Sequence record: NC_073064.1
Length of the DNA stretch: 45,904 bases
Direction: 5' to 3' (one strand)
DNA from: Escherichia phage vB_EcoS_PTXU06
Under the pieces are notes generated by a model, which was given only the letters and a program-made list of their open reading frames with translations, searched no databases and was not told the origin of the DNA. This document shows positions 17,219 to 29,737 of this stretch, piece after piece (within the stretch, counting starts at the first letter, position 1; every line of letters starts with the position of its first letter). A program made the position numbers and the translations under genes.

Positions 17219-19861
17219 ATGGCAGATCAAGCAGCAGGCATCACGCTGAAGGCTGATGTTGCACAAATCAGAACGGCAAATACTGTGCTGGACTCCTTCG
17301 CACAGAAATCCGAGAACACAGAAAACAAGGTTAAGAAATTAAACGACACCCTCGGCAAATCCAAAAATGTGACGAGTGACGCCGCGGGCGGAATGGAGAA
17401 GCTGGCGACTGAATCGCAGCGTGCCGCCGACGGCATGACGAAACAAGAGCGACTTGCCAACCGGTTAGGCATGTCGACCAAAAACCTGGGCTTTGCCTCG
17501 CGTAACGCCGCATTCCAGTTACAGGATATTGCGGTTACGCTTGAGATGGGGATGCCATTGCACCGCGTTATGCTTCAGCAGTTACCACAGCTTACTGGGG
17601 CGTTCGGTGGATTTGGTAACACGCTGCGTTATGTTGCGGGCTTCCTCGGCCCGGTAGGGATCGGCATTGCGGCACTAACGGCAACGCTAGGCGTAGGGGT
17701 GGCGATTACGTCCCGCGCAGAAAACCAGGTCGCAGCGCTTAACAAGACGCTGGCGCTATCCGGTAATATCTCCGGCCTAACAGCTAACCAGATCCTGGTG
17801 TTATCGGAGAACGCCGAGCGCATGGGCGGATCATTCCGCAAGACGCGAGACACAATTCAGGCACTGGCGGCGGCGGGCGTGAAGGCGGGTGCTGACTTCG
17901 GCGCACTGGCTAAGACCGTTAATGACTTCGCGAAGGCGTCCAGCCAGCCGATCGAGGATGTGGTCGCGGCGGTAGCGAAGCTGTCTACAGACCCGGTAGG
18001 CGGCTTGCGAGCATTGGCTGATAAGTATCACGTCGTAAACGAAGCGCAGATCCGGCAGGTACAATCCCTGGTGGATATGGGTCGTGAGACTGAAGCGGTG
18101 GCGCTGGCTAATAAAACAGCCGCGGCGTCGTTCACCACCATGACCAACGATATTAAGTCCAACATGGGAACGCTCGAGCGGTCGATGAACATCGTCACAT
18201 CGGCAGCGAAATCTATGTGGGATGCCATCCTGGATGTTGGACGCGCGCAGTCCTCGAATGAGTCAGAGATGAAAGCGCGTGAATCATTGCAGCGACTGAC
18301 CACGGCTTACTATGCCGAGATGAAAGCGGTAAACGCTGCCGGTGGGGTGATGACCGAAGCGCAGAAAGCGCGTATTAACATGCTTTACAGCGAACTGGTA
18401 GCCCAGGAAAAAGTAGTGGCGTCGCTCACCCTGCGCAACCGTGCCGAGCGTGACAACGCCAACGCCGCGGAACAATCAGCGAAGGCGAACGAGGAGGCCA
18501 ACCGCACCGCGCGGGACCGCGCCGCGTTCGAGAAGGAGTACGCAACCAACGCGAAGAGGCGCGCCGACGAGATCGCCCGCCTCAATTTGCTTAATAAGCG
18601 CGGCGTGATTGACGAGAAAGAGCTTGCCGAGGCGGTGAAGCAGGTAAACGAGCGTTACAAAGACCCCGCCCCGAAGAAGGCCGCCGCCGTTCGAGTCGAT
18701 GCCGGGCTGAAAATGCTGGAGGTCGCACGGAGCGAACTGGCACAGCTTCGAGAATCCGGCAAGCAGATCGAGGCCAACTCTTCGACGCAGACCCGCACGC
18801 AACGAGCGCAAGCGGCCCTTAACAAGCTGATTGCCGACAACGAGCAGTTAATCGCTGCGAGCAAAGAAAGGGCGCTGACGGCAGCAGAGAAGCAGCAATT
18901 AGTCGAGTTCGGACGCGTGAAGGAAGTACGTGAGCAGATCGTCGAAGAAGCCAAATTGCTGGACGCGAAAGAGAAGCAGGTCAAGGCGCACGCGCAGATC
19001 GACGCCTTCGTTAAGAACCAGAACGCCGAGCTAAAAGCCACCGCGGCGGGCTATGCGCTTTCCACTCGCGAAGCGGCTAACCTGCGCGAAGAATTGCAGC
19101 TAATTGACCGCCTTAAGCGGGTGGGCGCTAGCGATACCGATATTGATCTGGCGGTGTCTAAGCTGCGCGAAGTGCAGGAAGCACAGACCGGTGCTAACGC
19201 CTCGCTATGGGATGGATTCAGCCGTGGGCTTAAGGATAGCGTGGATGAAATGGGTAACGGATATACGCAGATGGCGTCACTCACAAAATTCACGTTCGGC
19301 GCTATGCAGGACACGATGAACGAGTTTTTCGAGACTGGCAAGCTGAACGCAAAGGATATGGTTAAGTCCATCCTGAGCGAATTAATCAAGCTGGCTACAT
19401 CGCAGGCGTTCAAGTCCATCGTTAGCGCTTTCGGTGGCGACGGCGGCAAAAACGGATTGTTCGGCGCTATCTTCTCCGGCCTGACTAAGAATGCGGACGG
19501 CGGAGCGTACGCAGGGGGCAATCTCGCGGCCTATTCAGGGCAAGTGGTAAGCCAGCCAACCTTTTTCAGTTATGGCGTCCAGGCGTTCGCTAAGGGGGCA
19601 GGATTGATGGGGGAGGCTGGACCCGAGGCCATCATGCCGCTGAAGCGCGGGCCAGACGGGAAACTGGGCGTTGCCGCTGCCGGTGTAGGCGGGGGAATGA
19701 TTGTAACGACCAACGTTAACATGGGGACCGGTAAGACGGATACCAGTGTTAGCGGACCAGACCCGCGCACCGCGCAGGCGTTCGGGAAGCAAATCACCGA
19801 GTCGGTCAAGGCCGAGATCGTGAAGGCGACGAAACCGGGTGGTGTACTTTACAAACGATGA
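17219..19861 (+). CDS. tail tape measure protein
   Basis: 880 aa, long alpha-helical/coiled-coil character with Gly-rich C-terminal region; follows the chaperone pair. Confidence 0.85.
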   Translation: MADQAAGITLKADVAQIRTANTVLDSFAQKSENTENKVKKLNDTLGKSKNVTSDAAGGMEKLATESQRAADGMTKQERLANRLGMSTKNLGFASRNAAFQLQDIAVTLEMGMPLHRVMLQQLPQLTGAFGGFGNTLRYVAGFLGPVGIGIAALTATLGVGVAITSRAENQVAALNKTLALSGNISGLTANQILVLSENAERMGGSFRKTRDTIQALAAAGVKAGADFGALAKTVNDFAKASSQPIEDVVAAVAKLSTDPVGGLRALADKYHVVNEAQIRQVQSLVDMGRETEAVALANKTAAASFTTMTNDIKSNMGTLERSMNIVTSAAKSMWDAILDVGRAQSSNESEMKARESLQRLTTAYYAEMKAVNAAGGVMTEAQKARINMLYSELVAQEKVVASLTLRNRAERDNANAAEQSAKANEEANRTARDRAAFEKEYATNAKRRADEIARLNLLNKRGVIDEKELAEAVKQVNERYKDPAPKKAAAVRVDAGLKMLEVARSELAQLRESGKQIEANSSTQTRTQRAQAALNKLIADNEQLIAASKERALTAAEKQQLVEFGRVKEVREQIVEEAKLLDAKEKQVKAHAQIDAFVKNQNAELKATAAGYALSTREAANLREELQLIDRLKRVGASDTDIDLAVSKLREVQEAQTGANASLWDGFSRGLKDSVDEMGNGYTQMASLTKFTFGAMQDTMNEFFETGKLNAKDMVKSILSELIKLATSQAFKSIVSAFGGDGGKNGLFGAIFSGLTKNADGGAYAGGNLAAYSGQVVSQPTFFSYGVQAFAKGAGLMGEAGPEAIMPLKRGPDGKLGVAAAGVGGGMIVTTNVNMGTGKTDTSVSGPDPRTAQAFGKQITESVKAEIVKATKPGGVLYKR

Positions 19862-19868
19862 TAAAATG

Positions 19869-19896
19869 GCCCTCACTACAACGTGGGGGCTTTTTT
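19869..19896 (+). terminator. terminator / attenuator hairpin
   Basis: GCCCTCAC-TACAAC-GTGGGGGC hairpin followed by TTTTTT immediately before the next start codon. Confidence 0.45.
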
Positions 19897-20496
19897 ATGT
19901 CACAAGGTACAATCACACTAACGAAAGGAAGTAAGACCGTCACGGGCGCGGGGACGGCGTTCCTGAGCGAGATTGGGAAGGTCCGCGTATTTGCCCGCAT
20001 CGACGGCAACGACTACACCGGCAAAATTGCAGCATTCAACTCTAACACCGTCATCACCCTGGCGGATAACTGGGCAGGTCCGACAAAAGCCGGTGTGGCT
20101 TATGAGCTAATCGAAGCGCACGACCCGCGGTCAAACGAATGGCCCTATTACTGGCACATGCAATTGCAAGGCGGCGGGGACGTGCAGTTAGCTTTCCGGT
20201 CCGAGGAATTGCAATTTGGTAACGGTTACGGTCAGAACATCGCGGACGGCCCGAACGCCGAAACGAAACAGTTCCCCGTGCAATTCATCGGACTTACTAC
20301 TGACAAGTGGTGCAACCCTAAACTGGTTTACAACTTTCTTCGCGGTCACTTCGTCAAGCCGTTTGTTGTCACCGCGCCGGATGGCGAAACAGGTTTATTC
20401 GTGGTCGAGCGTTCGAGCTTGTCGTACACTGACAACGGGAACTACACGGCAACTGTGTCCGCCACCCTCAAGACTGCTATCGGATTTGTAAGATGA
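19897..20496 (+). CDS. minor tail protein (lambda M position)
   Basis: 199 aa directly after tape measure; N-terminal GTITLTKGSKTVTGAGTAF motif shared with the side tail fiber at 27312. Confidence 0.55.
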   Translation: MSQGTITLTKGSKTVTGAGTAFLSEIGKVRVFARIDGNDYTGKIAAFNSNTVITLADNWAGPTKAGVAYELIEAHDPRSNEWPYYWHMQLQGGGDVQLAFRSEELQFGNGYGQNIADGPNAETKQFPVQFIGLTTDKWCNPKLVYNFLRGHFVKPFVVTAPDGETGLFVVERSSLSYTDNGNYTATVSATLKTAIGFVR

Positions 20497-21281
20497 ATAA
20501 ATTATATCGTGAGGCGACGCGCTTTGATCCATCGGGTCGCGTTCGCCTGATTCACATTGACGCGCAGGACGTGGAACCAGGCGACGGTGCGATCGGCGCG
20601 GGCCATCACTATTTCCACTACTGCTTTATTCCGCACACTGCCGAGGATATTGCTGCCGCGGGCGGAGACGAGGACAAGCTAAAGCCAAAATCTATCTTCT
20701 TCGGCGGGCAGGAATTCGAATTCTGGCCCTTCGATTTGTCCGGCCTTAACTTCTCCACATCAACGGCAGCGGAACCGCAGCTAACCATCGTTGATATTGG
20801 CGGAATCATCACCCGGTTGTCGCTGAATCACGACCAGCTACTGGGCGCGAAGGTTGAAATAATCGACACGTTCGCGAAGTTCCTGGATAACGGGTCGGAT
20901 CCAGACCCGACGCAGAAACGAGTTCAGGAGTATTACATCGACTCGCAGGTTGGGCGCAATCCTGGCAAGCAAATCACCTTCGCACTATCCTCTCCTGCGG
21001 ATATGGAGGGGCAAGTAGTCCCCCGCCGCCAAATCATGAATATGTGCGAATGGGCGTTAAATGGGAAGTACGCCAGCGGGGACGGGTGCACCTGGAACCT
21101 TGCGAAGCCAGGTATCAAGTATTACGACGAGCGGGGTAATGAAGTCATCGCGATGAATATGGACCGATGCGGCGGATGCTTGTCGGACTGCTATCTTCGT
21201 TTTGGACAAGGTCTTGCAGACCCAAAAGCGGCGGTGCTGGACTTCGGCGGTTTTCCAGGGTCCAAATTAATTAAGGGGTAG
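20493..21281 (+). CDS. minor tail protein L-like
   Basis: 262 aa; C-terminal cysteine cluster (CGGCLSDC) as in Fe-S-binding lambda L proteins; position in the tail-tip operon. Confidence 0.7.
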   Translation: MNKLYREATRFDPSGRVRLIHIDAQDVEPGDGAIGAGHHYFHYCFIPHTAEDIAAAGGDEDKLKPKSIFFGGQEFEFWPFDLSGLNFSTSTAAEPQLTIVDIGGIITRLSLNHDQLLGAKVEIIDTFAKFLDNGSDPDPTQKRVQEYYIDSQVGRNPGKQITFALSSPADMEGQVVPRRQIMNMCEWALNGKYASGDGCTWNLAKPGIKYYDERGNEVIAMNMDRCGGCLSDCYLRFGQGLADPKAAVLDFGGFPGSKLIKG

Positions 21282-21283
21282 TC

Positions 21284-22024
21284 ATGCTAACGAAGAAGGT
21301 TAAACGCGATATCGCCGCACACGTTGCGGCATGTCTGCCGGAAGAAGCGTGCGGGCTGGTCGTCATGGTGGGCCGCAAACAAGTGTTTATCCCGTGCCTG
21401 AACGTGTTTGAAGACCCGACCGGCGTGCGCTCACGCAAAGACGCTTTCACGATTAGTGATATGGCCTGGATGGACGCCGAGGATATGGGCGACGTTGTGC
21501 GCGTAGTCCACTCGCACCCGGGTCAGCGCGAGCTAACCCCGTCATTGGGCGACGTTAATGGGTGCAACGGCAGCGGCGTCGTCTGGACCATCACTAACGA
21601 ATATGGCGACTTTATCGAGATCGACCCGGAAGACCCGCCGCTGGTAGGTCGCCGATTTGTTCTCGGAATTACGGATTGTTATGGCCTCGTTATGGATTGG
21701 CATAAAAAGCAGGGCGTAAACCTGCCAGACTTCCGTGTACCGTACAACTGGTGGGAGACAGGCGAAAACCTGTATATGGACAATTGGTATGGCGCTGGCT
21801 TCCGGGAGTGTGAGGAGAACACGCCGGGGGCGATGGTCATCATGCAGATTAGCGCGCCAGTGCCTAACCATGCCGGAATCTACCTTCCGGGCAACCAATT
21901 ACTACACCATATATACGGCAGCCTGTCTAGCGTGATCCCCTTCCGGGCGGGATTTTTCCGCGACAATGTGGTTAAATGGGTACGTCATAAAGACCTACCG
22001 GGGGATATCACAGAATGGCAATGA
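21284..22024 (+). CDS. tail assembly protein K-like (JAB/MPN plus NlpC/P60-like)
   Basis: 246 aa; HSHPGQRELTPSLGD matches the JAMM HxH...S..D metal-binding pattern. Confidence 0.7.
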   Translation: MLTKKVKRDIAAHVAACLPEEACGLVVMVGRKQVFIPCLNVFEDPTGVRSRKDAFTISDMAWMDAEDMGDVVRVVHSHPGQRELTPSLGDVNGCNGSGVVWTITNEYGDFIEIDPEDPPLVGRRFVLGITDCYGLVMDWHKKQGVNLPDFRVPYNWWETGENLYMDNWYGAGFRECEENTPGAMVIMQISAPVPNHAGIYLPGNQLLHHIYGSLSSVIPFRAGFFRDNVVKWVRHKDLPGDITEWQ

Positions 22025-22632
22025 CCACCTTTAAACTCTACGGCGTCTTAGGACGTCGTTTCGGTAAAGTGCATAAGCTGGACTGCTTCACGCCGGGCGA
22101 GGGTATCACCGGCCTGTGTGTGAAGTTACCAGGCCTACAGGACTTTTTAATGTCGGCCCACCTTGACAACATGATGTTCAAAGTGCGCAAGGGCAATCAC
22201 ACAATGACCGGCTACGATGAGCTGGGCGAGTTCCACGGCAACCGCGTAGTAACCATCGCCCCGGTTATGACTGGTGCAAAAAGCGGACTGGGCCAATTGC
22301 TGGCGGGTGTAGCAATCGTGGTGGCGTCGTTCTATACCGGCGGGCTTGCGACTGCCGCTTTCGGAGCTTCAGCGGCGACCGCGGCCTCTATTGGCGCAGC
22401 GACGTTTTCGTTCGGGATGTCTATGGCGCTGGGGGGCGTTATGCAATTGCTATCGCCGCAACCGAAAGGATTGCAGACACGGCAGGACGTGGATAACAAG
22501 GCGTCGTATGCGTTCGGCGGACCGGTAAACACGACCGCGCAAGGCACGGCACTTGGTGTATTATGGGGCGAACGTGAGATCGGCGGCGCTATTATTTCAG
22601 CCGGAATCGTAACAGAGGACTTGAACGAATGA
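22015..22632 (+). CDS. tail assembly protein I-like
   Basis: 205 aa; Gly/Ala-rich hydrophobic C-terminal half; position between K-like and J-like genes. Confidence 0.6.
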   Translation: MAMTTFKLYGVLGRRFGKVHKLDCFTPGEGITGLCVKLPGLQDFLMSAHLDNMMFKVRKGNHTMTGYDELGEFHGNRVVTIAPVMTGAKSGLGQLLAGVAIVVASFYTGGLATAAFGASAATAASIGAATFSFGMSMALGGVMQLLSPQPKGLQTRQDVDNKASYAFGGPVNTTAQGTALGVLWGEREIGGAIISAGIVTEDLNE

Positions 22633-25600
22633 CGATTATCTACGACGTCACTGGGCATAAAGGCGGCGGCGGCAAACAGCACACCCCGCAGGAGACGCCG
22701 GACAGCCTGCATTCGCTGGCTAAAATCCGCATCTTGCTTGCGCTGGGGGAAGGGGAGTTCGAAAGTATTACCAGCGCCAGCGAATTGCGGCAGCGAGTAT
22801 ATCTGGACGGCACGCCGATCCAGAACGCCGACCTGTCGGAAAACTTCCCCGGCGCGCGCGTGGAGTTCCGCCCAGGCACACAGCACCAGGACGTGATCCA
22901 CGGATTTTCAGCGGTAGAAAGCGAGCAGTCCGTCGGTGTAAAACTGGAAAACGGCACGCCGTGGGTGCGCCAGATTAATGACACCAGTCTTGACGCTGTG
23001 CGCATTCGAATCGGCATTCCGGCTTTGTACACCAACGAAGATAATGGCGACCTGGTGGGCGGGCGCATCGACTATAAAATCGTTGTGTACACCGATAACG
23101 CGGATCCGCGCGAGTTCAACTTCGCTGCCGTTGGTAAAACAATGTCGCTATATGAGCGCGACCACCGCATCGAATTACCGCCGAACGTGAATACCGGCTG
23201 GCGCGTGGAAGTTCACCGCACAACGGCAGATTCTACATCGGCGAAAGTGGTTAATGATATCCGGGTGCAATCCATCACTGAGATTATCGACGCCCGCCTG
23301 CGTTACCCGCTAACCGCGCTGTTGTTTGTGGAGTTCGACGCCAAAGCGTTCCAGAACATCCCGCGCGTGTCCATCAAGTGCAAAGGCCGCAAAGTTCTAA
23401 TACCGAACAACTACGACCCGATTAATCATACCTATTCCGGGGACTGGGATGGCACGTTCAAACGCGCATGGACGGATAACCCCGCGTGGCACTGGTACGA
23501 TATTTGTATTACTGAGCGCTTCGGCCTCGGTCGGCGTATCAAACCGCAAATGTTAAACCGGTACGCGCTCTACCAGATTGCGCAGCGCTGCGATCAGTTG
23601 GTCAGTGACGGCAACGGCGGGCGAGAAATCCGCTTTAAGAATGATATGTACATACAGTCGCAGACCGACGCCTGGACCGTGCTTAAGGATCTAGCTGCCA
23701 TCTTTGCCGGTATGACCTGGTGGGGAAACCAGATGTTGAATATCGTAAGTGACCAGCCGGTCGCAGCGGTATCGCACACTATCACCAACGCCTCGGTTAT
23801 TGATGGCAGATTTGACTACGCGTCAGGGAGCCAGAAAACCCGCTATTCCACGTTCGCGGTAGCATACGGCAACCCGAAAAACCACTATGATGACGCTATC
23901 GCAACGGGCCAGCGCGTCGAACTGGTGCGCCGCCATAAGATTAACCGTCTTGATATAACGGCGATCGGCTGTACGCGCGAATCTGAAGCGCAACGCCGCG
24001 GACACTGGGCGCTAATCTCCAACCAGTTGGACCAGCAGGTCAGCTTCAAGGTTGGCATGGAGGGGCTATTCTTTATTCCTGGTAGCGTAGTCGCGATCGC
24101 GGATACTAATATTTCCGGCGGATTCGAGACTCGCGGCGGTCGCCTGTTGTCAGACCCTGGCACGCGTACCGTGCTTAACACAGACAGCGAAATCACATTC
24201 CGCCCTGGTGATAAGTTCCTGGTGCGCACCGATAGCGGAAATGTGGAGACTCGCGAGATCGCCAGCGTCAACGGCAACAAGGTCACGCTAAAAACCGCAC
24301 TGGATGCCGACCCGATTCCAGACCAACCGTTTTGCGTTGATGGCGACGATATCCAGTTGCAAAAATTCCGCATCACCGATCTGGAGTATGACGACTCTAC
24401 GAGCACTTTCTCGGTGCGCGGGATTGAATACAACGATAGCAAATATGATGCCGTTGATAATGGCGCACGACTAGACCCGGGCATCTTTACGCAAGTGCCA
24501 GACGGGGTAATGAAGGGGCCGGAATCCGTGACCATCACCCCGTCGCAGATTTCATCGCAAGGACAGCTAATCACCAACGTGGATATTGTTTTCCCGCCGG
24601 TGAAAGATGCCGTTGTATACGAAATCCAGTGGCGACGTACCAGCTTGCAGAATATGGCAATCCAGTGGGGAAACGACTGGGTAAACATCCCCCGCACGGC
24701 ATCGAACGGCGCTCACATCCCAAATGTGTTTTCTGGTAACTACCAGGCCCGCGTCCGCGCGATCGGTATGGGCGAGATTTCATCCCCGTGGGTGGAGTCT
24801 GCCATCACGCCGGTAGAAGGTCGTCTCGGTGGGCTTAACGCGCCTATCATCACTAACGCGATTTCTGGCCTCCACCAGATTTTGTGGAAGTGGAACCATA
24901 ACAACGCCGCGACGGATATCTCTTACACCGAGCTTGAAGTGCGCAAGACTGGTGAAACGGAATGGAAATTTCTTACAAACGTCCCATATCCGGGGGCGGA
25001 GTATGCCCAAACGTCACTGGAGTTCGGGATCTATCAGCAGTTGCGCGCCCGTGTAGCGGATAAAATCGGCAACCTATCGGACTGGTCGGACCCGTTTGAA
25101 GGGCAGGTGAGTGACAAAGTTGACGAGTACATGAAGGGTCTTGATGACGAGTTCTTGACTTCCGAGGATGGTAAACGCTTCCAGGAAGCAATCGACACGA
25201 TCCCGCAGGGTATTTACGAGGCGATGCTCACCGACGCGCAGCAATTGTTCAACGCCCGCGCCGAGTACAAGGGTATTTATGCGGAAATCTCGGTCGCGTA
25301 TAACGTGGCGGCGGACGCCCACAAGGCGGTCGCCCAACTGGAGACGTTGATCGGCACGCGACTTGACGATGCGGAAGCGGCGATCCACACGTTGCAGACA
25401 GCGCAAAGCACGCACGAACAAGCGTTTGCCCAGTACCAGCAAACTGTTGCCGCTAAGTTCGGGGAACAGGAAGCCGCCATCCAGCAGGTGCAAACGGCAA
25501 CGGCAGACGTAGCGGGCGCGCTGGCGGAGTACAAGACCCAGGTCGCGGCACAGTTCGGTCAGCAGTCCGCCGCTATCGAGCAGAAGATGACGTCCACGTT

Positions 25601-26051
25601 TAACCATGCCGGTGGCAACGCCACATACCGCCTTAAGGCTGGCGTGACGTATAACGGGACTTACTACGATGCCGGTATGCAGCTTTCAGTTGTTGCGGAA
25701 GGTGGCGAGGTTAAATCCCGCATCGCGTTCAAGGCGGACCAGTTCTACATCATGCACCCATCTAACGGGTCGCTTTCGTCCGCGTTTATCGTGGACGGCG
25801 GCGCGGTGTATATTGACACGGCACGCATCAAGGACGCGACTATCAACTTCGCGCAGATCACGGACACGCTGCAATCGAATAACTATGACGGCTACTCGCG
25901 TGGCTGGCGCTTAGGGAAAGACGGAACGTTTATCAACCTGGGAACCGGTAACGGTGGCGGGGCGATGAAAATGACGAATGACACAATCAGCGTAAAGGAT
26001 TCTAACGGAGTTTTGCGAGTTCAGATTGGTAAAATCACGGGGGGTTGGTGA
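22629..26051 (+). CDS. host specificity protein J-like central tail fiber
   Basis: 1140 aa; N-terminus (HKGGGGKQHTPQE...) resembles lambda J-family proteins; terminal gene of the tail-tip operon. Confidence 0.85.
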   Translation: MTIIYDVTGHKGGGGKQHTPQETPDSLHSLAKIRILLALGEGEFESITSASELRQRVYLDGTPIQNADLSENFPGARVEFRPGTQHQDVIHGFSAVESEQSVGVKLENGTPWVRQINDTSLDAVRIRIGIPALYTNEDNGDLVGGRIDYKIVVYTDNADPREFNFAAVGKTMSLYERDHRIELPPNVNTGWRVEVHRTTADSTSAKVVNDIRVQSITEIIDARLRYPLTALLFVEFDAKAFQNIPRVSIKCKGRKVLIPNNYDPINHTYSGDWDGTFKRAWTDNPAWHWYDICITERFGLGRRIKPQMLNRYALYQIAQRCDQLVSDGNGGREIRFKNDMYIQSQTDAWTVLKDLAAIFAGMTWWGNQMLNIVSDQPVAAVSHTITNASVIDGRFDYASGSQKTRYSTFAVAYGNPKNHYDDAIATGQRVELVRRHKINRLDITAIGCTRESEAQRRGHWALISNQLDQQVSFKVGMEGLFFIPGSVVAIADTNISGGFETRGGRLLSDPGTRTVLNTDSEITFRPGDKFLVRTDSGNVETREIASVNGNKVTLKTALDADPIPDQPFCVDGDDIQLQKFRITDLEYDDSTSTFSVRGIEYNDSKYDAVDNGARLDPGIFTQVPDGVMKGPESVTITPSQISSQGQLITNVDIVFPPVKDAVVYEIQWRRTSLQNMAIQWGNDWVNIPRTASNGAHIPNVFSGNYQARVRAIGMGEISSPWVESAITPVEGRLGGLNAPIITNAISGLHQILWKWNHNNAATDISYTELEVRKTGETEWKFLTNVPYPGAEYAQTSLEFGIYQQLRARVADKIGNLSDWSDPFEGQVSDKVDEYMKGLDDEFLTSEDGKRFQEAIDTIPQGIYEAMLTDAQQLFNARAEYKGIYAEISVAYNVAADAHKAVAQLETLIGTRLDDAEAAIHTLQTAQSTHEQAFAQYQQTVAAKFGEQEAAIQQVQTATADVAGALAEYKTQVAAQFGQQSAAIEQKMTSTFNHAGGNATYRLKAGVTYNGTYYDAGMQLSVVAEGGEVKSRIAFKADQFYIMHPSNGSLSSAFIVDGGAVYIDTARIKDATINFAQITDTLQSNNYDGYSRGWRLGKDGTFINLGTGNGGGAMKMTNDTISVKDSNGVLRVQIGKITGGW

Positions 26052-26054
26052 TAT

Positions 26055-26076
26055 AGGGGCTTCGGCCCCTTCTATC
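26055..26076. terminator. bidirectional terminator-like hairpin
   Basis: AGGGGC-TTCG-GCCCCT hairpin between convergent genes; weak T-tract. Confidence 0.4.
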
Positions 26077-26689
26077 AATCGTATTTAGCCGCATCTATTG
26101 CGAGTATGGATGGTGAATAATAAACGCCGAGCGGCCCTGGTGTGTGGGCGACTTGCTTAGATATCGAATAAATGCTTGTTCCGGATGCGCCGGATTGTGA
26201 TTCATAAATCGCGTGCCCACCAATCTGAGGGGTGGGAACCGAGTTTATTGCCGTTTGTTGTGGCGATACGGCACATGTATACCCCAGATTAACATCAAAA
26301 GACAGACCATTTATCGGTATTTGGTGGGCCTCCAGCGGCAGCATTTTCCCGTGGTACACCATATTCCCAGCAGAATTATAGAATGCGATCCCGTAGTCTC
26401 CTGGCGGGGTAACCATATCACTAAAAGCATAAACCTTAATCCATCCGGGATTGTCGGTCTTGTCTAGCCGGAGCGCATGGTAACCCCCGTTATTTATGTG
26501 AGAGAATGCGGTGTACGCTCGCCCGCCCATCCTCACAAAGAAAAAGCACACGCGATCGAATGGTATTGGCGTTGTAAAAACAGAACCGCTATACACCCCC
26601 ATATCACCGCGACTTATTAAATTAACAGGCGTAAAATCCGGGCTTAACCAAATGGACCCATCCGGCTTTGTGATCTGCATTCCGTACAT
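26075..26689 (-). CDS. hypothetical protein
   Basis: 204-aa ORF with GGGGG RBS; 1-nt gap from the upstream ORF; no recognisable motif. Confidence 0.5.
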   Translation of the reverse strand: MYGMQITKPDGSIWLSPDFTPVNLISRGDMGVYSGSVFTTPIPFDRVCFFFVRMGGRAYTAFSHINNGGYHALRLDKTDNPGWIKVYAFSDMVTPPGDYGIAFYNSAGNMVYHGKMLPLEAHQIPINGLSFDVNLGYTCAVSPQQTAINSVPTPQIGGHAIYESQSGASGTSIYSISKQVAHTPGPLGVYYSPSILAIDAAKYD

Positions 26690-26690
26690 G

Positions 26691-26990
26691 CTACCCCCAA
26701 TACGTATATATAAATCTTGATTCGCCAGCGTTAAAGCCGCTCCAGGAGACAGTGTTGTCGCTTACGGATATTGATGGCGCACCCCAAGATGTGCCGTTCC
26801 AGGTATGCGTACCAACGTAACCTGCCTTTAAACTTTTCCCCGGCGGACGGTTGTGATACGTCTTGCTCCCGGATGGTTGTGTGAATTTGTCAAGAAAAAA
26901 AACCGGCGTTAACAGGCCTGTGACGTCACGACCATGTTCGTCATAAATCGCGTACCCATAGTTACTCACTTCTACACTCCACAATTTCAA
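26691..26990 (-). CDS. hypothetical protein
   Basis: 99-aa ORF, translationally coupled to the downstream gene. Confidence 0.45.
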   Translation of the reverse strand: MKLWSVEVSNYGYAIYDEHGRDVTGLLTPVFFLDKFTQPSGSKTYHNRPPGKSLKAGYVGTHTWNGTSWGAPSISVSDNTVSWSGFNAGESRFIYTYWG

Positions 26991-27231
26991 ATTTATCTTC
27001 GCTTTGCCATCTGTGAACGAAAGTTACAAATTTCTGTGATGGGGCTACTCGGTATTGTTTTTCGCCAAATCGGTTTTCACGCACCGCGTTTAGTTTAACA
27101 GGGTAGCTATCGTTTACGGGGAATGTTTTAACCGCATATTGGCCTACGCAATCGATAGCCTTGTAGTTGCCGTCTGGCGATGCGGAGCAACCGGACAAAA
27201 GAACCGCACAAATCATAATTAAAGTTTTCAT
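26962..27231 (-). CDS. small lipoprotein (candidate superinfection-exclusion / receptor-blocking protein)
   Basis: Start at the internal ATG with GGAGA RBS; signal peptide with lipobox L-S-G-C (MKTLIMICAVLLSGCSA); sits between two tail fiber genes. Confidence 0.5.
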   Translation of the reverse strand: MKTLIMICAVLLSGCSASPDGNYKAIDCVGQYAVKTFPVNDSYPVKLNAVRENRFGEKQYRVAPSQKFVTFVHRWQSEDKFEIVECRSE

Positions 27232-27311
27232 GGTATCATCTCCTATATTTGGTTGAGTTTTAGTATTACACCGCTCGATCAAGAATGCAACCAATTTACG
27301 AGGATTTAGCT

Positions 27312-29135
27312 ATGGCAGCGGGCACACTATCCGTAACGAATAACAGCAAGGCGGTTGTAGGGGTCGGGACAACGTTTACCGCGTTTAACGCTGGCGACTT
27401 CTTAACGCTGGTGGTAGGGCAAGTCCCCTACACCGTAGCAATCGCGTCCGTTGAAAGCGAAACCGCGCTTACGCTGGTGTTACCGTTCGACGGCCCAACG
27501 GCAACCGGCCTTGCGTGGGATGGCGTTAAGCGCGATACCATGTCACTGGCGACGATGGGCGTAACCGTACAGGCACAGAAAGCATTGCGCTTGATGCTTG
27601 CAGATGAAAACAACTGGCGTGCAATCTTCGGCGACGCTGAAGAAATAACCGTGACGTTGCCTAACGGGCAGGTAATGCAGGGTATGTCATGGGGATATCT
27701 GTCGCAGTTGATGAAACAGGTCGACCCAGTTGAGATGCGCAACCTGCAACAGCAAGCCGCCGCATCTGAAGCAGCCGCGCAGGGATACCGGAACGAGGCC
27801 GAAGGCTTCAAGACCGAGACGGCGGGCATTCGCGACGCCACCAATCAGATTAAGGCGGATACGCAGGCGATCCACGACGCCACTAATACCATCAAGACGC
27901 AGACTGACCTGATTAAGACTGATACTCAGGCCATCAAGGACCAGACGAACCAGATCAAGACTGACACCGGCGTTATTCGTGACGAAGCCAATATGGCGAA
28001 GACTGACGCGCAGGCCGCCAGCGCTGCCGCGCAGGGATTTCGCGATCAGGCCGAAGAATGGGCGCAAAGCGTAAACCCCGACAATCTGCTAACCAAATCC
28101 GGCAACCTCGCCGGGCTTGCGGACAAAAGTGCGTCGTGGGCTAACCTTATGCCGTCAGGACCGCTTCGCGTAGGTGCGGACCCCGTAAACACCCTGGACG
28201 CTGCGACTAAAGGGTGGGTGTGGCGCGGTCTTGATGACGTGGGGCTTTGGGGTTTACGCAATAACTACGCTTCAGAACCCGCAGGGGGTGCAGAAGTATA
28301 CGGCGGGCGCTTTGACTCCTCTGTGAACGTCGCAGGGACCGAAAAATACAGAATGTCGATACAGCTTCAGGGGCGTAATAACGTAGACGCCTGGACACGT
28401 TTGGCGACCGCTGACGTCCGCAGCATGGCGAACGCGGCGACGTGGGACTTTAAATATGATGGCAAGATTATTTTCAATAAGGGATTGAGTCCATCGTCCA
28501 CCTCGGCGTCGCCAGGTAATACCTACGTAACCCTTGCGAATACATGGATGGACAGCCAATACTCGGGACACGTCGGCTTTGTTGGAGGCGGGGCGGGGAC
28601 GAGTGGTGGCGGGTGGCGTAACTTTATTTCGTTCGGCGCGCTGATCCACCCGCCCACCGGTAACTCGCACCCCCATGCTATGATTGCGCAGGTCTTTGAT
28701 TATGATTTGGCGTCCGGGACACAGCCTAACGGCGATAGCGTTCGAAACACTACATTCAACCCCGAAGCATACGATATCACCTTCGGCAACAACTTAGGGA
28801 CTGTTAACTATATTTTCGCAAAGTCCCCGGTATCCGATAGGGCGCTGAAGCATGATATCGCCCGGATCGATACTCAAGTTGCGTACGATAACGTTATGAC
28901 TATGGAGTACTCGTCCTTTGTTTATAACTACGACAAAAAAGAGACGGTTAGACGTGGTTTTATCGCGCAGCAGTTGGAAGAGATCGACCCGCAGTATGTC
29001 CGCAAGTACACCAACGCAACCGGTAAAGAGTTTCTGGCATTAGATGAAAACGTCCTACTACTTGACCTAATCGCGACTGTTCAGCATTTGGCGGCGAAGG
29101 TTGAGGCGTTAGAAAGTAAGTTAGCGGAGAAATGA
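27312..29135 (+). CDS. side tail fiber with C-terminal intramolecular chaperone-like domain
   Basis: Start at ATG 27312 with GAGGA RBS; repetitive T/Q/D-rich shaft (IKTDTQAIKDQTNQIKTDTG); C-terminal SDRALKHDI...coiled coil resembles S74-type auto-cleaving chaperone domains. Confidence 0.7.
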   Translation: MAAGTLSVTNNSKAVVGVGTTFTAFNAGDFLTLVVGQVPYTVAIASVESETALTLVLPFDGPTATGLAWDGVKRDTMSLATMGVTVQAQKALRLMLADENNWRAIFGDAEEITVTLPNGQVMQGMSWGYLSQLMKQVDPVEMRNLQQQAAASEAAAQGYRNEAEGFKTETAGIRDATNQIKADTQAIHDATNTIKTQTDLIKTDTQAIKDQTNQIKTDTGVIRDEANMAKTDAQAASAAAQGFRDQAEEWAQSVNPDNLLTKSGNLAGLADKSASWANLMPSGPLRVGADPVNTLDAATKGWVWRGLDDVGLWGLRNNYASEPAGGAEVYGGRFDSSVNVAGTEKYRMSIQLQGRNNVDAWTRLATADVRSMANAATWDFKYDGKIIFNKGLSPSSTSASPGNTYVTLANTWMDSQYSGHVGFVGGGAGTSGGGWRNFISFGALIHPPTGNSHPHAMIAQVFDYDLASGTQPNGDSVRNTTFNPEAYDITFGNNLGTVNYIFAKSPVSDRALKHDIARIDTQVAYDNVMTMEYSSFVYNYDKKETVRRGFIAQQLEEIDPQYVRKYTNATGKEFLALDENVLLLDLIATVQHLAAKVEALESKLAEK

Positions 29136-29139
29136 GAAT

Positions 29140-29164
29140 AAGGGGCCATACGGCCCCTTTTTTA
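29140..29164. terminator. bidirectional rho-independent terminator
   Basis: AAGGGGCC-ATAC-GGCCCCTT hairpin followed by TTTTTT at the switch from plus to minus transcription. Confidence 0.65.
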
Positions 29165-29737
29165 GTTTGAGTTTTCCCAGTCCATTTTGCGCCGCACCAG
29201 CGGGCTTTCAAAGTATTCCTTGCCCTCAACTTCCACCAAAGGCCAGTCGTTCACAATCACGTACGGCTCCGCGATATCCTCAATCACGCCGTGCGCGCTT
29301 TGCGGCCCTAACGACACACCAACCAGGATAACCCCGGCAACTCGACGAGTGAGATACTCGCGAGCGCAACGTGCCTCAACCAGCCCCCTACGGATGCCGC
29401 TGGTGGCCTTAACCTCGTACGCCCAAACGGCATCAATCATATGTTCCCGGAAGTCGGGACCAGACTTTACCTTGCGTTTGCCGACCATGATAATATCGCC
29501 GCGGTCGATAGTGTTAGCGCTAAACAGGCCGGTACGCATTAGCAAACCTTGAGGGATACAGCTACGCCCGCCCGCCTGCCCTTCTAGGTACATGCCCGCA
29601 AACATCTCACCCAGCACACCTACAAGGCGGCTTTGTTTGCACGCGTCAGACTTTAAGCGCCACTGTTCAAACTCTATGCTTGCGATCATTGCTGCGAGGT
29701 GGAATTGTTTACCGGTTATTTCATATTCGCCGTACAT
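29162..29737 (-). CDS. hypothetical protein, possible PD-(D/E)xK-type nuclease
   Basis: 191 aa; GDIIMVGK...IDAVWAYEVKAT resembles a D...ExK nuclease core (weak). Confidence 0.4.
   Translation of the reverse strand: MYGEYEITGKQFHLAAMIASIEFEQWRLKSDACKQSRLVGVLGEMFAGMYLEGQAGGRSCIPQGLLMRTGLFSANTIDRGDIIMVGKRKVKSGPDFREHMIDAVWAYEVKATSGIRRGLVEARCAREYLTRRVAGVILVGVSLGPQSAHGVIEDIAEPYVIVNDWPLVEVEGKEYFESPLVRRKMDWENSN

What the first reader, a model, noticed from the sequence alone, without database searches (positions are those of the whole stretch)
19897..20050. Shared N-terminal motif between the M-position tail protein and the side tail fiber
The 199-aa protein after tape measure begins MSQGTITLTKGSKTVTGAGTAFLSEI, and the side tail fiber (from 27312) begins MAAGTLSVTNNSKAVVGVGTTFTAFNAG. 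This is the same G-T-[IL]-[ST]-[LV]-T-x-x-S-K-x-V-x-G-x-G-T-x-F pattern. It suggests a common docking domain, or that the 199-aa protein is a fiber-related baseplate component rather than a lambda-M homolog.
Basis: seen in the sequence. Interest (0 to 1): 0.4.

Follow-up and report, generated by a model that had tools for sequence, protein, structure and literature searches.

The report
Fibre-anchor domain fused to distal tail protein
The small tail protein after the tape measure in this E. coli Dhillonvirus is a normal lambda-M-type distal tail protein that has gained, at its N-terminus, a copy of the small beta-barrel that side tail fibres use to attach to the virion; this is a modest new twist on a known theme.

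Summary
The 199-aa protein (19897-20496) and the side tail fibre (27312-29135) align without gaps over their first 70 residues (34% identity, BLASTP E=2e-7, z=15 against shuffles).

The shared unit is a complete ~75-aa six-stranded beta-barrel. It belongs to a very large family (3,863 cluster representatives). The domain sits at residue 1 of hundreds of phage tail fibres and forms tandem arrays in giant surface proteins. A profile links it (E=7e-14) to the N-terminal "OB" domain of F2-pyocin side fibre PyoF13, which was shown by cryo-EM to anchor that fibre.

Residues 86-192 match Pfam Phage_min_tail, and a 97%-identical protein is deposited as PDB 23gd "Distal tail protein gp20".

The fusion is confined to Dhillonvirus. 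Sister phages, and N15, ES18, T1-like phages and F-pyocins, keep the fibre domain with a plain ~120-aa distal tail protein. The extra domain is therefore not required for fibre attachment in general. It is under purifying selection (dN/dS 0.13).

Most likely it forms a six-copy outer collar at the tube-tip junction that docks or co-assembles with the fibre barrels. This mechanism is inferred, not shown. Moderate interest.

The parts
19897..20496 (+). Distal tail protein gene (199 aa plus stop), lambda gpM position, two domains
   Evidence: ORF list. Pfam PF05939 at aa 86-192. phrog_9922 'minor tail protein' matches full length. PDB 23gd_B 'Distal tail protein gp20', 199 aa, E=4e-132.
19897..20121 (+). 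N-terminal ~75-aa fibre-type beta-barrel (OB-like) domain of the distal tail protein; this is the finding
20122..20151 (+). Short linker (aa 76-85, HDPRSNEWPY region) joining the barrel to the gpM-type domain
   Evidence: Lies between the end of the domain profile match (aa ~75) and the start of the PF05939 match (aa 86). NTD-less relatives begin just before the conserved WPYWW motif.
20152..20493 (+). gpM-type (Phage_min_tail, tail-tube-fold) ring domain, aa 86-199
   Evidence: PF05939, 44 bits against cut-off 39. 56-66% identical to 122-125-aa distal tail proteins that lack the N-terminal domain. Matches T1 minor tail protein 9l9p_H, E=6e-12.
27312..29135 (+). Side (lateral) tail fibre gene, 607 aa plus stop
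   Evidence: phrog_1980 tail fibre, E=1e-123. Peptidase_S74 at aa 508-563. Annotated as lateral tail fibre in BASEL Dhillonvirus records.
27312..27536 (+). N-terminal ~75-aa beta-barrel of the side tail fibre, homologous to the distal tail protein's N-terminal domain
   Evidence: Nearly invariant across 16 Dhillonvirus loci although fibre length varies from 538 to 893 aa. dN/dS 0.07.
27537..27731 (+). Conserved fibre segment after the barrel (aa 76-140), probable stem
   Evidence: Conserved together with the barrel in Dhillonvirus, N15 gp25, phiES15, S135 and other fibres. dN/dS 0.05. Helical or stem character is inferred from PyoF13 (PMC13455828) and was not tested.
28833..29000 (+). Intramolecular chaperone (Peptidase_S74) domain of the fibre
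   Evidence: PF13884, E=2e-11, aa 508-563. Aligns with the C-terminus of the T5-like L-shaped fibre 8hqz_d.
22629..26051 (+). J-like central fibre (context); contains a ~130-aa helical segment (about aa 855-985) homologous to the T1 and F2-pyocin central fibres. It is the alternative docking site for the fibre barrel.
   Evidence: Pfam domains. PDB 23gd_D; F2-pyocin fibre E=2e-222; T1 E=1e-204; lambda J E=3e-86. C-terminal part aligned to T1 and F2.
19868..19896 (+). Hairpin plus U-run between the tape-measure stop and the distal tail protein start (context, noticed in passing)
   Evidence: Terminator-like site. Folds at -22 kcal/mol, z=-5.5. Same structure with different stem sequences in L001, L003 and L019.

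Best explanation
Shown: the 199-aa protein is a two-domain distal tail protein. Its C-terminal ~115 residues are the lambda-gpM-type ring domain. Its first ~75 residues are a six-stranded beta-barrel from a very widespread mobile domain family whose usual home is residue 1 of phage side fibres and tailspikes. The motif G-T-[IL]-[ST]-[LV]-T-x-x-S-x-x-V-x-G-x-G-T-x-F is the family's fold signature. The phage's own side fibre carries another, 34%-identical copy.

Inferred origin: the fusion arose by domain shuffling in the Dhillonvirus ancestor. The domain was added cleanly between the start codon and the WPYYW motif of a plain distal tail protein.

Inferred mechanism: the Pfam match begins at residue 86, at position 5 of the gpM profile. 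In Ur-lambda, gpM residues K2 and W6 contact the side-fibre collar. The six N-terminal barrels should therefore sit on the outside of the hexameric ring at the tube-tip junction, forming a built-in collar. I favour the view that this collar acts as a protein-protein docking module for the three side fibres. It would do so through lateral barrel-barrel contacts with the fibres' homologous N-terminal barrels, as PyoF13 barrels pack side by side into a pseudo-sixfold ring in the F2 pyocin. This would add a proximal attachment or resting point to whatever site the fibres use in relatives that lack the fusion.

Confidence in the domain identity is about 0.95. Confidence in the docking mechanism is about 0.4.
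For: Homology of the two N-termini.
Two-domain architecture: Pfam PF05939 at aa 86-192. PDB 23gd_B 'Distal tail protein gp20' is near-identical.
Domain family: 3,863 representatives at E<=1e-3. In 123 of 128 single-copy members the domain starts at residue 1. Many PHROG tail-fibre families match at their N-terminus.
Link to a solved anchoring domain: the profile matches F2-pyocin side fibre aa 5-74 at E=7e-14. That OB domain mediates attachment and forms a pseudo-sixfold ring (PMC13455828). F7 pyocin side fibres likewise bind through the N-terminal domain (PMC12874032).
Functionality: dN/dS 0.13.
Distribution: the fusion is present in 161 phage records, all Dhillonvirus-like, while 953 other records match only aa 84-199. 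All 16 Dhillonvirus loci have exactly two copies, one on the distal tail protein and one on the fibre.
Position of the gpM N-terminus at the Ur-lambda collar contact: PMC12617516.
Distal tail protein accessory domains that dock fibres or spikes are documented for Sf11 (PMC12724387) and monocin (cited).
Against: Four sister contigs (L001, L002, L003, L019) have a 122-125-aa distal tail protein without the domain, yet their fibre barrels are nearly identical or closely similar. N15, ES18, phiES15, T1-like phages and F-pyocins also pair this fibre barrel with plain distal tail proteins. Fibre attachment therefore does not need the fused copy.

No co-variation is visible. L014 has a clearly diverged N-terminal domain on its distal tail protein, but its fibre barrel is unchanged.

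In both solved F-pyocins the homologous fibre domain binds the central-fibre coiled coil, not the distal tail protein. The J-like protein here has a homologous helical region.

No chain of PDB 23gd matches the fibre, so a rigid fibre collar next to gp20 was at least not modelled.

No complex was modelled or observed here.
Confidence: 0.45

Rival explanations
1. Independent decoration. The N-terminal barrel of the distal tail protein has nothing to do with the side fibre. It acts on its own, either as a weak adhesin for cell-surface glycans (like carbohydrate-binding modules of 'evolved' distal tail proteins) or as a structural brace of the tube-tip junction. The fibres attach elsewhere, probably to the coiled coil of the J-like central fibre as in F-pyocins.
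For: Relatives and many other phages use the same fibre barrel with a plain distal tail protein. F2 and F7 pyocin fibres bind the central-fibre coiled coil, and the J-like protein is closer to the F2 fibre (E=2e-222) than to lambda J. The domain also occurs as tandem arrays in giant surface proteins with PKD, SdrD-B and Peptidase_C25 domains, as a generic surface module would. It is structurally similar to the T5 pb9 decorating OB domain, whose role is not fibre anchoring. No co-variation with the fibre barrel was seen.
Against: No sugar-binding site or lectin family match was found. The closest sequence relatives of the distal tail protein's barrel are fibre N-termini carrying the 'GPT' motif and starting at Met1, not the tandem-array copies. 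The solved homologue's documented activity is protein-protein attachment.
Confidence: 0.33
2. Post-trigger latch. In F-pyocins this barrel type grips the central-fibre coiled coil. The six copies on the distal tail protein could therefore capture the J coiled coil, or the fibre-J assembly, when the central fibre bends up alongside the tube after receptor binding.
For: The homologous domain binds the coiled coil in F2 and F7 pyocins. Ur-lambda's central fibre bends to the side of the tail during infection (PMC12617516). The J-like protein here has a homologous helical segment.
Against: This is entirely inferential. The F2/F7 attachment segment is not covered by the alignment to this J protein. 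The barrel here lacks the following stem helix that forms the six-helix bundle in F2.
Confidence: 0.06
3. The resemblance is chance or compositional (Gly/Thr/Ser-rich N-termini) and has no biological meaning.
For: The motif is rich in G, T, S and V. A single AF2 model with a shallow alignment failed to fold the region.
Against: BLASTP with compositional adjustment gives E=2e-7. z=15, and 0 of 2000 shuffles reach the score. Reciprocal profile hits were found. A confident beta-barrel model was obtained with a family alignment.
Confidence: 0.01
4. The 199-aa protein is a fibre-related baseplate component and not a lambda-M homolog.
For: Its first 75 residues are fibre-like.
Against: PF05939 matches above the curated cut-off at aa 86-192. 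Residues 82-199 are 56-66% identical to plain 122-125-aa distal tail proteins located between the tape measure and gpL. PDB 23gd names the near-identical protein a distal tail protein. It has no fibre shaft or receptor-binding part.
Confidence: 0.01

Closest known systems
Distal tail protein gp20 of an E. coli Dhillonvirus, PDB 23gd chain B (with J-like gp24, chain D)
   Same: 199 aa, about 97% identical over the full length, including the N-terminal domain. It is the same protein in a sister phage.
   Different: I found no publication in the searchable library, and the entry is newer than the fold-search copy of the PDB. What the depositors say about residues 1-75 could not be read. No fibre chain of that entry matches the Stf.
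F2-pyocin side fibre PyoF13 N-terminal OB domain (PDB 25ve/25vj; PMC13455828), and the F7 pyocin side fibre (PMC12874032)
   Same: Sequence-homologous domain at the extreme N-terminus (profile E=7e-14, aa 5-74). It is a small beta-barrel that mediates attachment of the fibre to the particle and packs laterally into a ring.
   Different: In pyocins the domain sits only on the fibre and binds the central-fibre coiled coil, and the pyocin distal tail protein (MF2, 113 aa) has no such domain. Here a second copy is fused to the distal tail protein.
Phage T5 distal tail protein pb9 (PDB 4JMQ), a distal tail protein with a decorating OB-fold domain
   Different: There is no detectable sequence similarity. 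In pb9 the accessory domain follows the ring domain, whereas here it precedes it. T5 fibres are anchored by a separate collar protein, p132.
Ur-lambda side tail fibre collar (gpStf residues 1-94; PDB 9MGH; PMC12617516)
   Same: It is an N-terminal fibre domain that forms a collar at the gpV/gpM junction and touches gpM residues K2 and W6. That is the place where an N-terminal extension of a gpM homologue would emerge.
   Different: The fold and family differ: an Ig-like six-stranded sheet plus a helix. All twelve copies come from four fibres, and lambda gpM has no extra domain. No sequence match to the domain here.
Shigella phage Sf11 distal tail protein gp17 adaptor (PMC12724387)
   Same: It is a distal tail protein enlarged by an accessory region that docks trimeric host-recognition appendages.
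   Different: The Sf11 adaptor is a C-terminal helix that forms a four-helix bundle with tailspike N-terminal helices. It is not homologous to the appendage's own anchor domain.

Membership tests
Lambda gpM / Pfam PF05939 Phage_min_tail (siphophage distal tail protein) | Match to the family HMM above the curated gathering score | tested here: met
   44 bits against cut-off 39, aa 86-192 aligned to profile positions 5-105 of 108. phrog_14 'minor tail protein' at aa 86-193.
Lambda gpM / Pfam PF05939 Phage_min_tail (siphophage distal tail protein) | Gene lies immediately after the tape measure gene and before gpL, gpK, gpI and gpJ homologues | tested here: met
   Tape measure 17219-19861, this gene 19897-20496, Phage_tail_L 20493-21281, then the NlpC/P60-JAB, I-like and J-like genes.
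Lambda gpM / Pfam PF05939 Phage_min_tail (siphophage distal tail protein) | Experimentally placed as the hexameric ring under the last tail-tube ring | not testable with these tools
   Supported only indirectly: the 97%-identical PDB chain 23gd_B is named 'Distal tail protein gp20'. Coordinates could not be inspected.
Lambda gpM / Pfam PF05939 Phage_min_tail (siphophage distal tail protein) | Tail-tube fold of the ring domain | tested here: inconclusive
   The full-length AF2 model is poor (mean pLDDT 49.8). Only aa ~120-195 reach pLDDT 68-85.
Fibre N-terminal beta-barrel ('OB') anchor domain, as in F-pyocin PyoF13 | Sequence homology to the solved PyoF13 N-terminal domain | tested here: met
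   Distal tail protein alone: E=1.4e-3, aa 2-81 against 5-82. Family profile including both window copies: E=7e-14, aa 5-74. The Stf on its own does not reach E<=1.
Fibre N-terminal beta-barrel ('OB') anchor domain, as in F-pyocin PyoF13 | Small all-beta barrel fold | tested here: met
Fibre N-terminal beta-barrel ('OB') anchor domain, as in F-pyocin PyoF13 | Located at residue 1 of a trimeric fibre and followed by a stem and shaft | tested here: not met
   Met for the Stf copy: starts at residue 1, followed by the conserved aa 76-140 segment and a 607-aa fibre. Not met for the distal tail protein copy: it starts at residue 1 but is followed directly by the gpM domain. The distal tail protein carries the domain but is not a fibre.
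Fibre N-terminal beta-barrel ('OB') anchor domain, as in F-pyocin PyoF13 | Binds the coiled coil of the central fibre | not testable with these tools
   The J-like protein has a homologous helical region, but the F2/F7 attachment segment is not covered by the alignment. No multimer modelling was available.
Decorated ('evolved') distal tail proteins, e.g. T5 pb9 | Distal tail protein ring domain plus an accessory domain exposed on the outside of the ring | tested here: inconclusive
   The two-domain architecture is shown. Outward exposure is inferred only from the position of the gpM N-terminus in Ur-lambda.
Decorated ('evolved') distal tail proteins, e.g. T5 pb9 | Accessory domain C-terminal to, or inserted in, the ring domain | tested here: not met
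   Here the accessory domain is N-terminal, aa 1-75 before the ring domain at aa 86-199.
Ur-lambda-type Stf collar domain | Sequence or fold match to the lambda Stf N-terminal Ig-like collar domain | tested here: not met
   Neither protein gives a Pfam hit to a lambda Stf N-terminal family. No lambda Stf chain appears among the PDB sequence hits.

The most novel reading that the evidence does not exclude
The six barrels of the distal tail protein and six of the nine barrels of the three side fibres interdigitate into one mixed twelve-membered collar at the tube-tip junction. This would be a collar of the Ur-lambda/T5 type, but built from two different proteins sharing one fold. Acquiring the domain on the distal tail protein would then have moved the fibres from the central-fibre coiled coil (the F-pyocin mode) up to the distal tail protein.
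Probability: 0.15. Interest if true: 0.55.

Novelty: new variant of a known kind. Interest (0 to 1): 0.35.

Why it matters
How side fibres are fixed to siphophage tails is only now being resolved: Ur-lambda in 2025, F-pyocins in 2026, and T5. Three different solutions are known. This phage group offers a natural experiment. The same fibre anchor domain occurs both on the fibre and, in cis, on the distal tail protein, while close relatives have only the fibre copy. If the two copies co-assemble, this would show how a fibre docking site can be created by copying the fibre's own anchor onto a ring protein. It would also give a simple handle for engineering fibre display in Dhillonvirus phages, which are common in phage collections. 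If they do not co-assemble, the domain joins the T5 pb9 OB domain as a conserved distal-tail-protein decoration of unknown role. Separately, the work defines a very large domain family (3,863 cluster representatives) that has no match in the Pfam-A or NCBIfam copies searched.

Tried and rejected
- The word-indexed homologue search with the 85-aa domain alone returned nothing. It was replaced by the full-length search and the exhaustive profile search.
- AF2 of the full 199-aa protein with 11 sequences failed for aa 1-122 (pLDDT <50). The domain was then modelled alone with a 63-sequence family alignment.
- Four literature searches for a paper describing 23gd or a Dhillonvirus tail structure found none. 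The Avs-1 'gp20' is an unrelated Aeromonas phage.
- I looked for the F2/F7 fibre-attachment segment (acidic kink near residues 950-961) in the J-like protein. The alignment to the F2 fibre starts only at residue 976, so this is inconclusive.
- I looked for co-variation between the two barrels across 16 loci. None was evident, and both are highly conserved, so the test has little power.
- A recent intragenomic duplication is rejected: only 46% nucleotide identity in frame.
- An internal start that would yield an NTD-less distal tail protein was considered and rejected from the sequence. There is no Met before the WPYYW motif.

Full report
**What the window is.**
The region is the tail module of an E. 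coli Dhillonvirus-type siphophage. It is 94% identical over 10 kb to phage vB_EcoS_Zar3M, and 167 phage records match. Gene order is:
- tape measure (17219-19861)
- the 199-aa protein (19897-20496)
- gpL homologue
- NlpC/P60-JAB protein
- I-like protein
- J-like central fibre (22629-26051)
- three small reverse-strand genes
- side tail fibre (27312-29135) with a C-terminal S74 chaperone

**The observation.**
Both quoted N-termini are present as stated. The similarity is not limited to 26 residues. BLASTP aligns residues 1-70 of both proteins without a gap (34% identity, E=2e-7). Smith-Waterman scores are far outside shuffled controls: z=15 for the first 85 residues and z=9 for the motif alone, and 0 of 2000 shuffles reach the observed score. 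A profile of the domain finds exactly two copies in the whole window, at these two N-termini.

**What the shared unit is.**
- PHROG profiles show the same ~70 residues at the N-terminus of many tail-fibre families.
- Pfam-A and NCBIfam have no model for it.
- An exhaustive profile search of 1.84 billion cluster representatives found 3,863 proteins at E<=1e-3 and 492 at E<=1e-10.
- Among the best 150, 128 carry one copy. In 123 of these it starts at residue 1 of a protein with median length 405 aa, mostly fibres with S74 or Phage_tail_C_2 C-termini.
- Twenty-five carry 2-13 tandem copies inside giant proteins with PKD, SdrD-B or Peptidase_C25 domains.
- The family consensus is GT[IV]SVTNGSxxVxGxGTxFxxxLxxGDxIxxxGxxYTIxSVxSDTxLTLxxxYxGxTxSG. 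Most residues shared by the two window proteins are therefore family fold determinants.
- With a 63-sequence family alignment, AF2 folds the distal tail protein's copy as a six-stranded beta-barrel (pLDDT 84).
- In BFVD the best matches are a 199-aa 'minor tail protein' and the N-termini of lateral fibres of Dhillonvirus and T1-like phages.

**Link to solved structures.**
- The 199-aa protein is about 97% identical to PDB 23gd chain B, 'Distal tail protein gp20'. The J-like protein matches 23gd chain D. I found no paper for this entry.
- The domain profile matches residues 5-74 of the F2-pyocin side fibre PyoF13 at E=7e-14.
- The F2 paper describes this PyoF13 N-terminal part as an OB domain that resembles the decorating domain of the T5 distal tail protein. 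[quoted passage not shown] - The F7 pyocin preprint reports the same attachment mode (PMC12874032).

**The 199-aa protein is a gpM homologue.**
- Residues 86-192 match PF05939 above the curated cut-off.
- Residues 82-199 are 56-66% identical to 122-125-aa proteins that occupy the same gene position in related contigs.
The protein is a fusion of a fibre-type barrel and a gpM-type ring domain.

**Distribution of the fusion.**
- In the phage collection, 161 records (all Dhillonvirus-like, 80-99% identical) cover the whole protein. The other 953 records match only residues ~84-199.
- Among the top 150 domain-family representatives, only the Dhillonvirus cluster also has the gpM domain.
- In 15 IMG/VR Dhillonvirus loci plus the window, both copies are always present. 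Fibre length ranges from 538 to 893 aa while the barrel and the next ~65 residues stay nearly invariant.
- Four sister contigs (L001, L002, L003, L019) have the same tail gene order and an 880-aa tape measure, but a distal tail protein without the barrel. Their fibres still begin with the barrel, and in L001 it is almost identical to the window's.
- The fibre barrel plus stem also occurs in N15 gp25, phiES15, ES18, SPN3UB and others. The same fold heads T1-like lateral fibres. T1 and the F2 pyocin have plain 113-117-aa distal tail proteins.
- The intergenic region and start codon are in the same place in both kinds of genome. The barrel was therefore added, or lost, exactly between Met1 and the WPYYW motif. 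Gain in the Dhillonvirus ancestor is the parsimonious reading.
- The fused copy is under purifying selection: dN/dS 0.13, compared with 0.04 for the ring domain and 0.07 for the fibre barrel. It is not a recent duplicate of the fibre's copy (46% nucleotide identity).

**Mechanism.**
What is shown: the domain identity, its fold, its homology to a domain that attaches fibres, its restriction to Dhillonvirus, and its selective maintenance.

What is inferred:
- The gpM profile starts at residue 86. In Ur-lambda, gpM residues K2 and W6 touch the twelve-membered side-fibre collar at the gpV/gpM junction (PMC12617516). The six barrels should therefore project from the outside of the ring at that junction.
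- Distal tail protein accessory regions often dock fibres or spikes (Sf11; monocin).
- This barrel type packs laterally with its own kind in the F2 pyocin.

From these points I favour a built-in collar that docks or co-assembles with the fibres' barrels (about 0.4).

The main rival (about 0.33) is that fibres attach elsewhere, most simply to the J-like coiled coil as in F-pyocins. The J-like protein is closer to the F2 fibre than to lambda J, and its C-terminal helical part is homologous. Under this rival, the distal tail protein's barrel is an independent decoration or weak adhesin. Three observations support it: the relatives without the fusion, the lack of co-variation in L014, and the absence of a fibre chain in 23gd. 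A more speculative latch role for the bent central fibre cannot be excluded.

**Comparison and novelty.**
Decorated distal tail proteins and fibre N-terminal anchor barrels are both known. What differs here is that the accessory domain is N-terminal and is homologous to the anchor domain of the same virion's side fibre. A near-identical protein has already been solved (23gd), so the structure itself is not new. The relationship between the two copies, and its evolutionary context, were not described in anything I could find. I rate this a new variant of a known kind, of moderate interest.

**Side observations.**
- A stable hairpin followed by a U-run lies between the tape-measure stop and the distal tail protein start. 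It encloses the only SD-like G-run and pairs the stop-codon region with the start-codon region. It is conserved in structure, with different stem sequences, in three relatives. It could be a terminator or a translational-coupling device.
- The remaining side observations are listed under Noticed in passing.

Noticed in passing
window 19856-19905 (hairpin 19868-19891, U-run 19892-19896, ATG 19897); L001 9960-10008; L003 9960-10008; L019 9945-9995: A stable hairpin plus U-run fills the 35-nt gap between the tape-measure stop (TGATAA) and the distal tail protein start. It folds at -22 kcal/mol (z=-5.5). The 3' arm holds the only SD-like G-run, and the outer stem pairs the stop-codon region with the U-run and start codon. 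Three relatives have the same structure with different stem sequences. It could be an intrinsic terminator or attenuator that sets tape measure to distal tail protein stoichiometry, or a translational-coupling hairpin opened by the ribosome terminating on the tape-measure gene.
   Followed up: partly
window 19858-19896 and 27285-27311: Both genes have an in-frame upstream ATG: a 212-aa distal tail protein from 19858, and a 616-aa Stf from 27285. Some gene callers use these (P0001 212 aa, P0002 218 aa, P0018 and P0029 'MQPIYEDSAMAAGT'). The 199-aa PDB chain, and the rule that this domain starts at residue 1 (123 of 128 members), favour 19897 and 27312.
   Followed up: partly
L001 10362-11609 and L002 6133-7380 (compare window 20493-21281): In the sister contigs that lack the barrel on the distal tail protein, the gpL homologue is 415 aa instead of 262 aa. 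It has a ~150-aa insertion after about residue 55, which may be a different accessory domain on another tail-tip protein. L003 has neither addition.
   Followed up: no
proteins P0011-P0014, P0017, P0033, P0035: The same ~75-aa domain occurs as 4-13 tandem copies in giant proteins of 1,000-2,900 aa that also carry PKD, SdrD B-like or Peptidase_C25 domains. It is therefore not a phage-only module. Neither the Pfam-A nor the NCBIfam copy searched has a model for it.
   Followed up: partly
window 22629-26051: By sequence the J-like central fibre is much closer to the F2-pyocin central fibre (E=2e-222) and to T1 (E=1e-204) than to lambda J (E=3e-86). It has a ~130-aa helical segment before the Phage_Tail_Tip domain, comparable to the coiled coil that carries the side fibres in F-pyocins.
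   Followed up: partly
window 27312-29135 (aa 216-308 and 507-606): The middle and C-terminal parts of the side fibre align with the L-shaped tail fibre of a T5-like phage (PDB 8hqz_d, E=2e-14), including the S74 intramolecular chaperone. This shows the usual mosaic make-up of these fibres.
   Followed up: no
phage database records matching window 19000-29200: Records labelled 'Campylobacter phage' (6, 21; e.g. A144, host C. jejuni) and Sodalis phage SO-1 are about 95% identical to E. coli Dhillonvirus genomes in this region. This suggests mislabelled hosts or contaminating coliphages in those records.
   Followed up: no
window 26075-27294, minus strand: Three small reverse-strand genes (204, 99 and 110 aa) lie between the J-like gene and the side fibre. 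In relatives the corresponding genes carry DUF6453 and Phage_lipoprotein domains. A 2025 paper proposes these as overlooked receptor-binding components of Dhillonvirus (PMC12309495).
   Followed up: no
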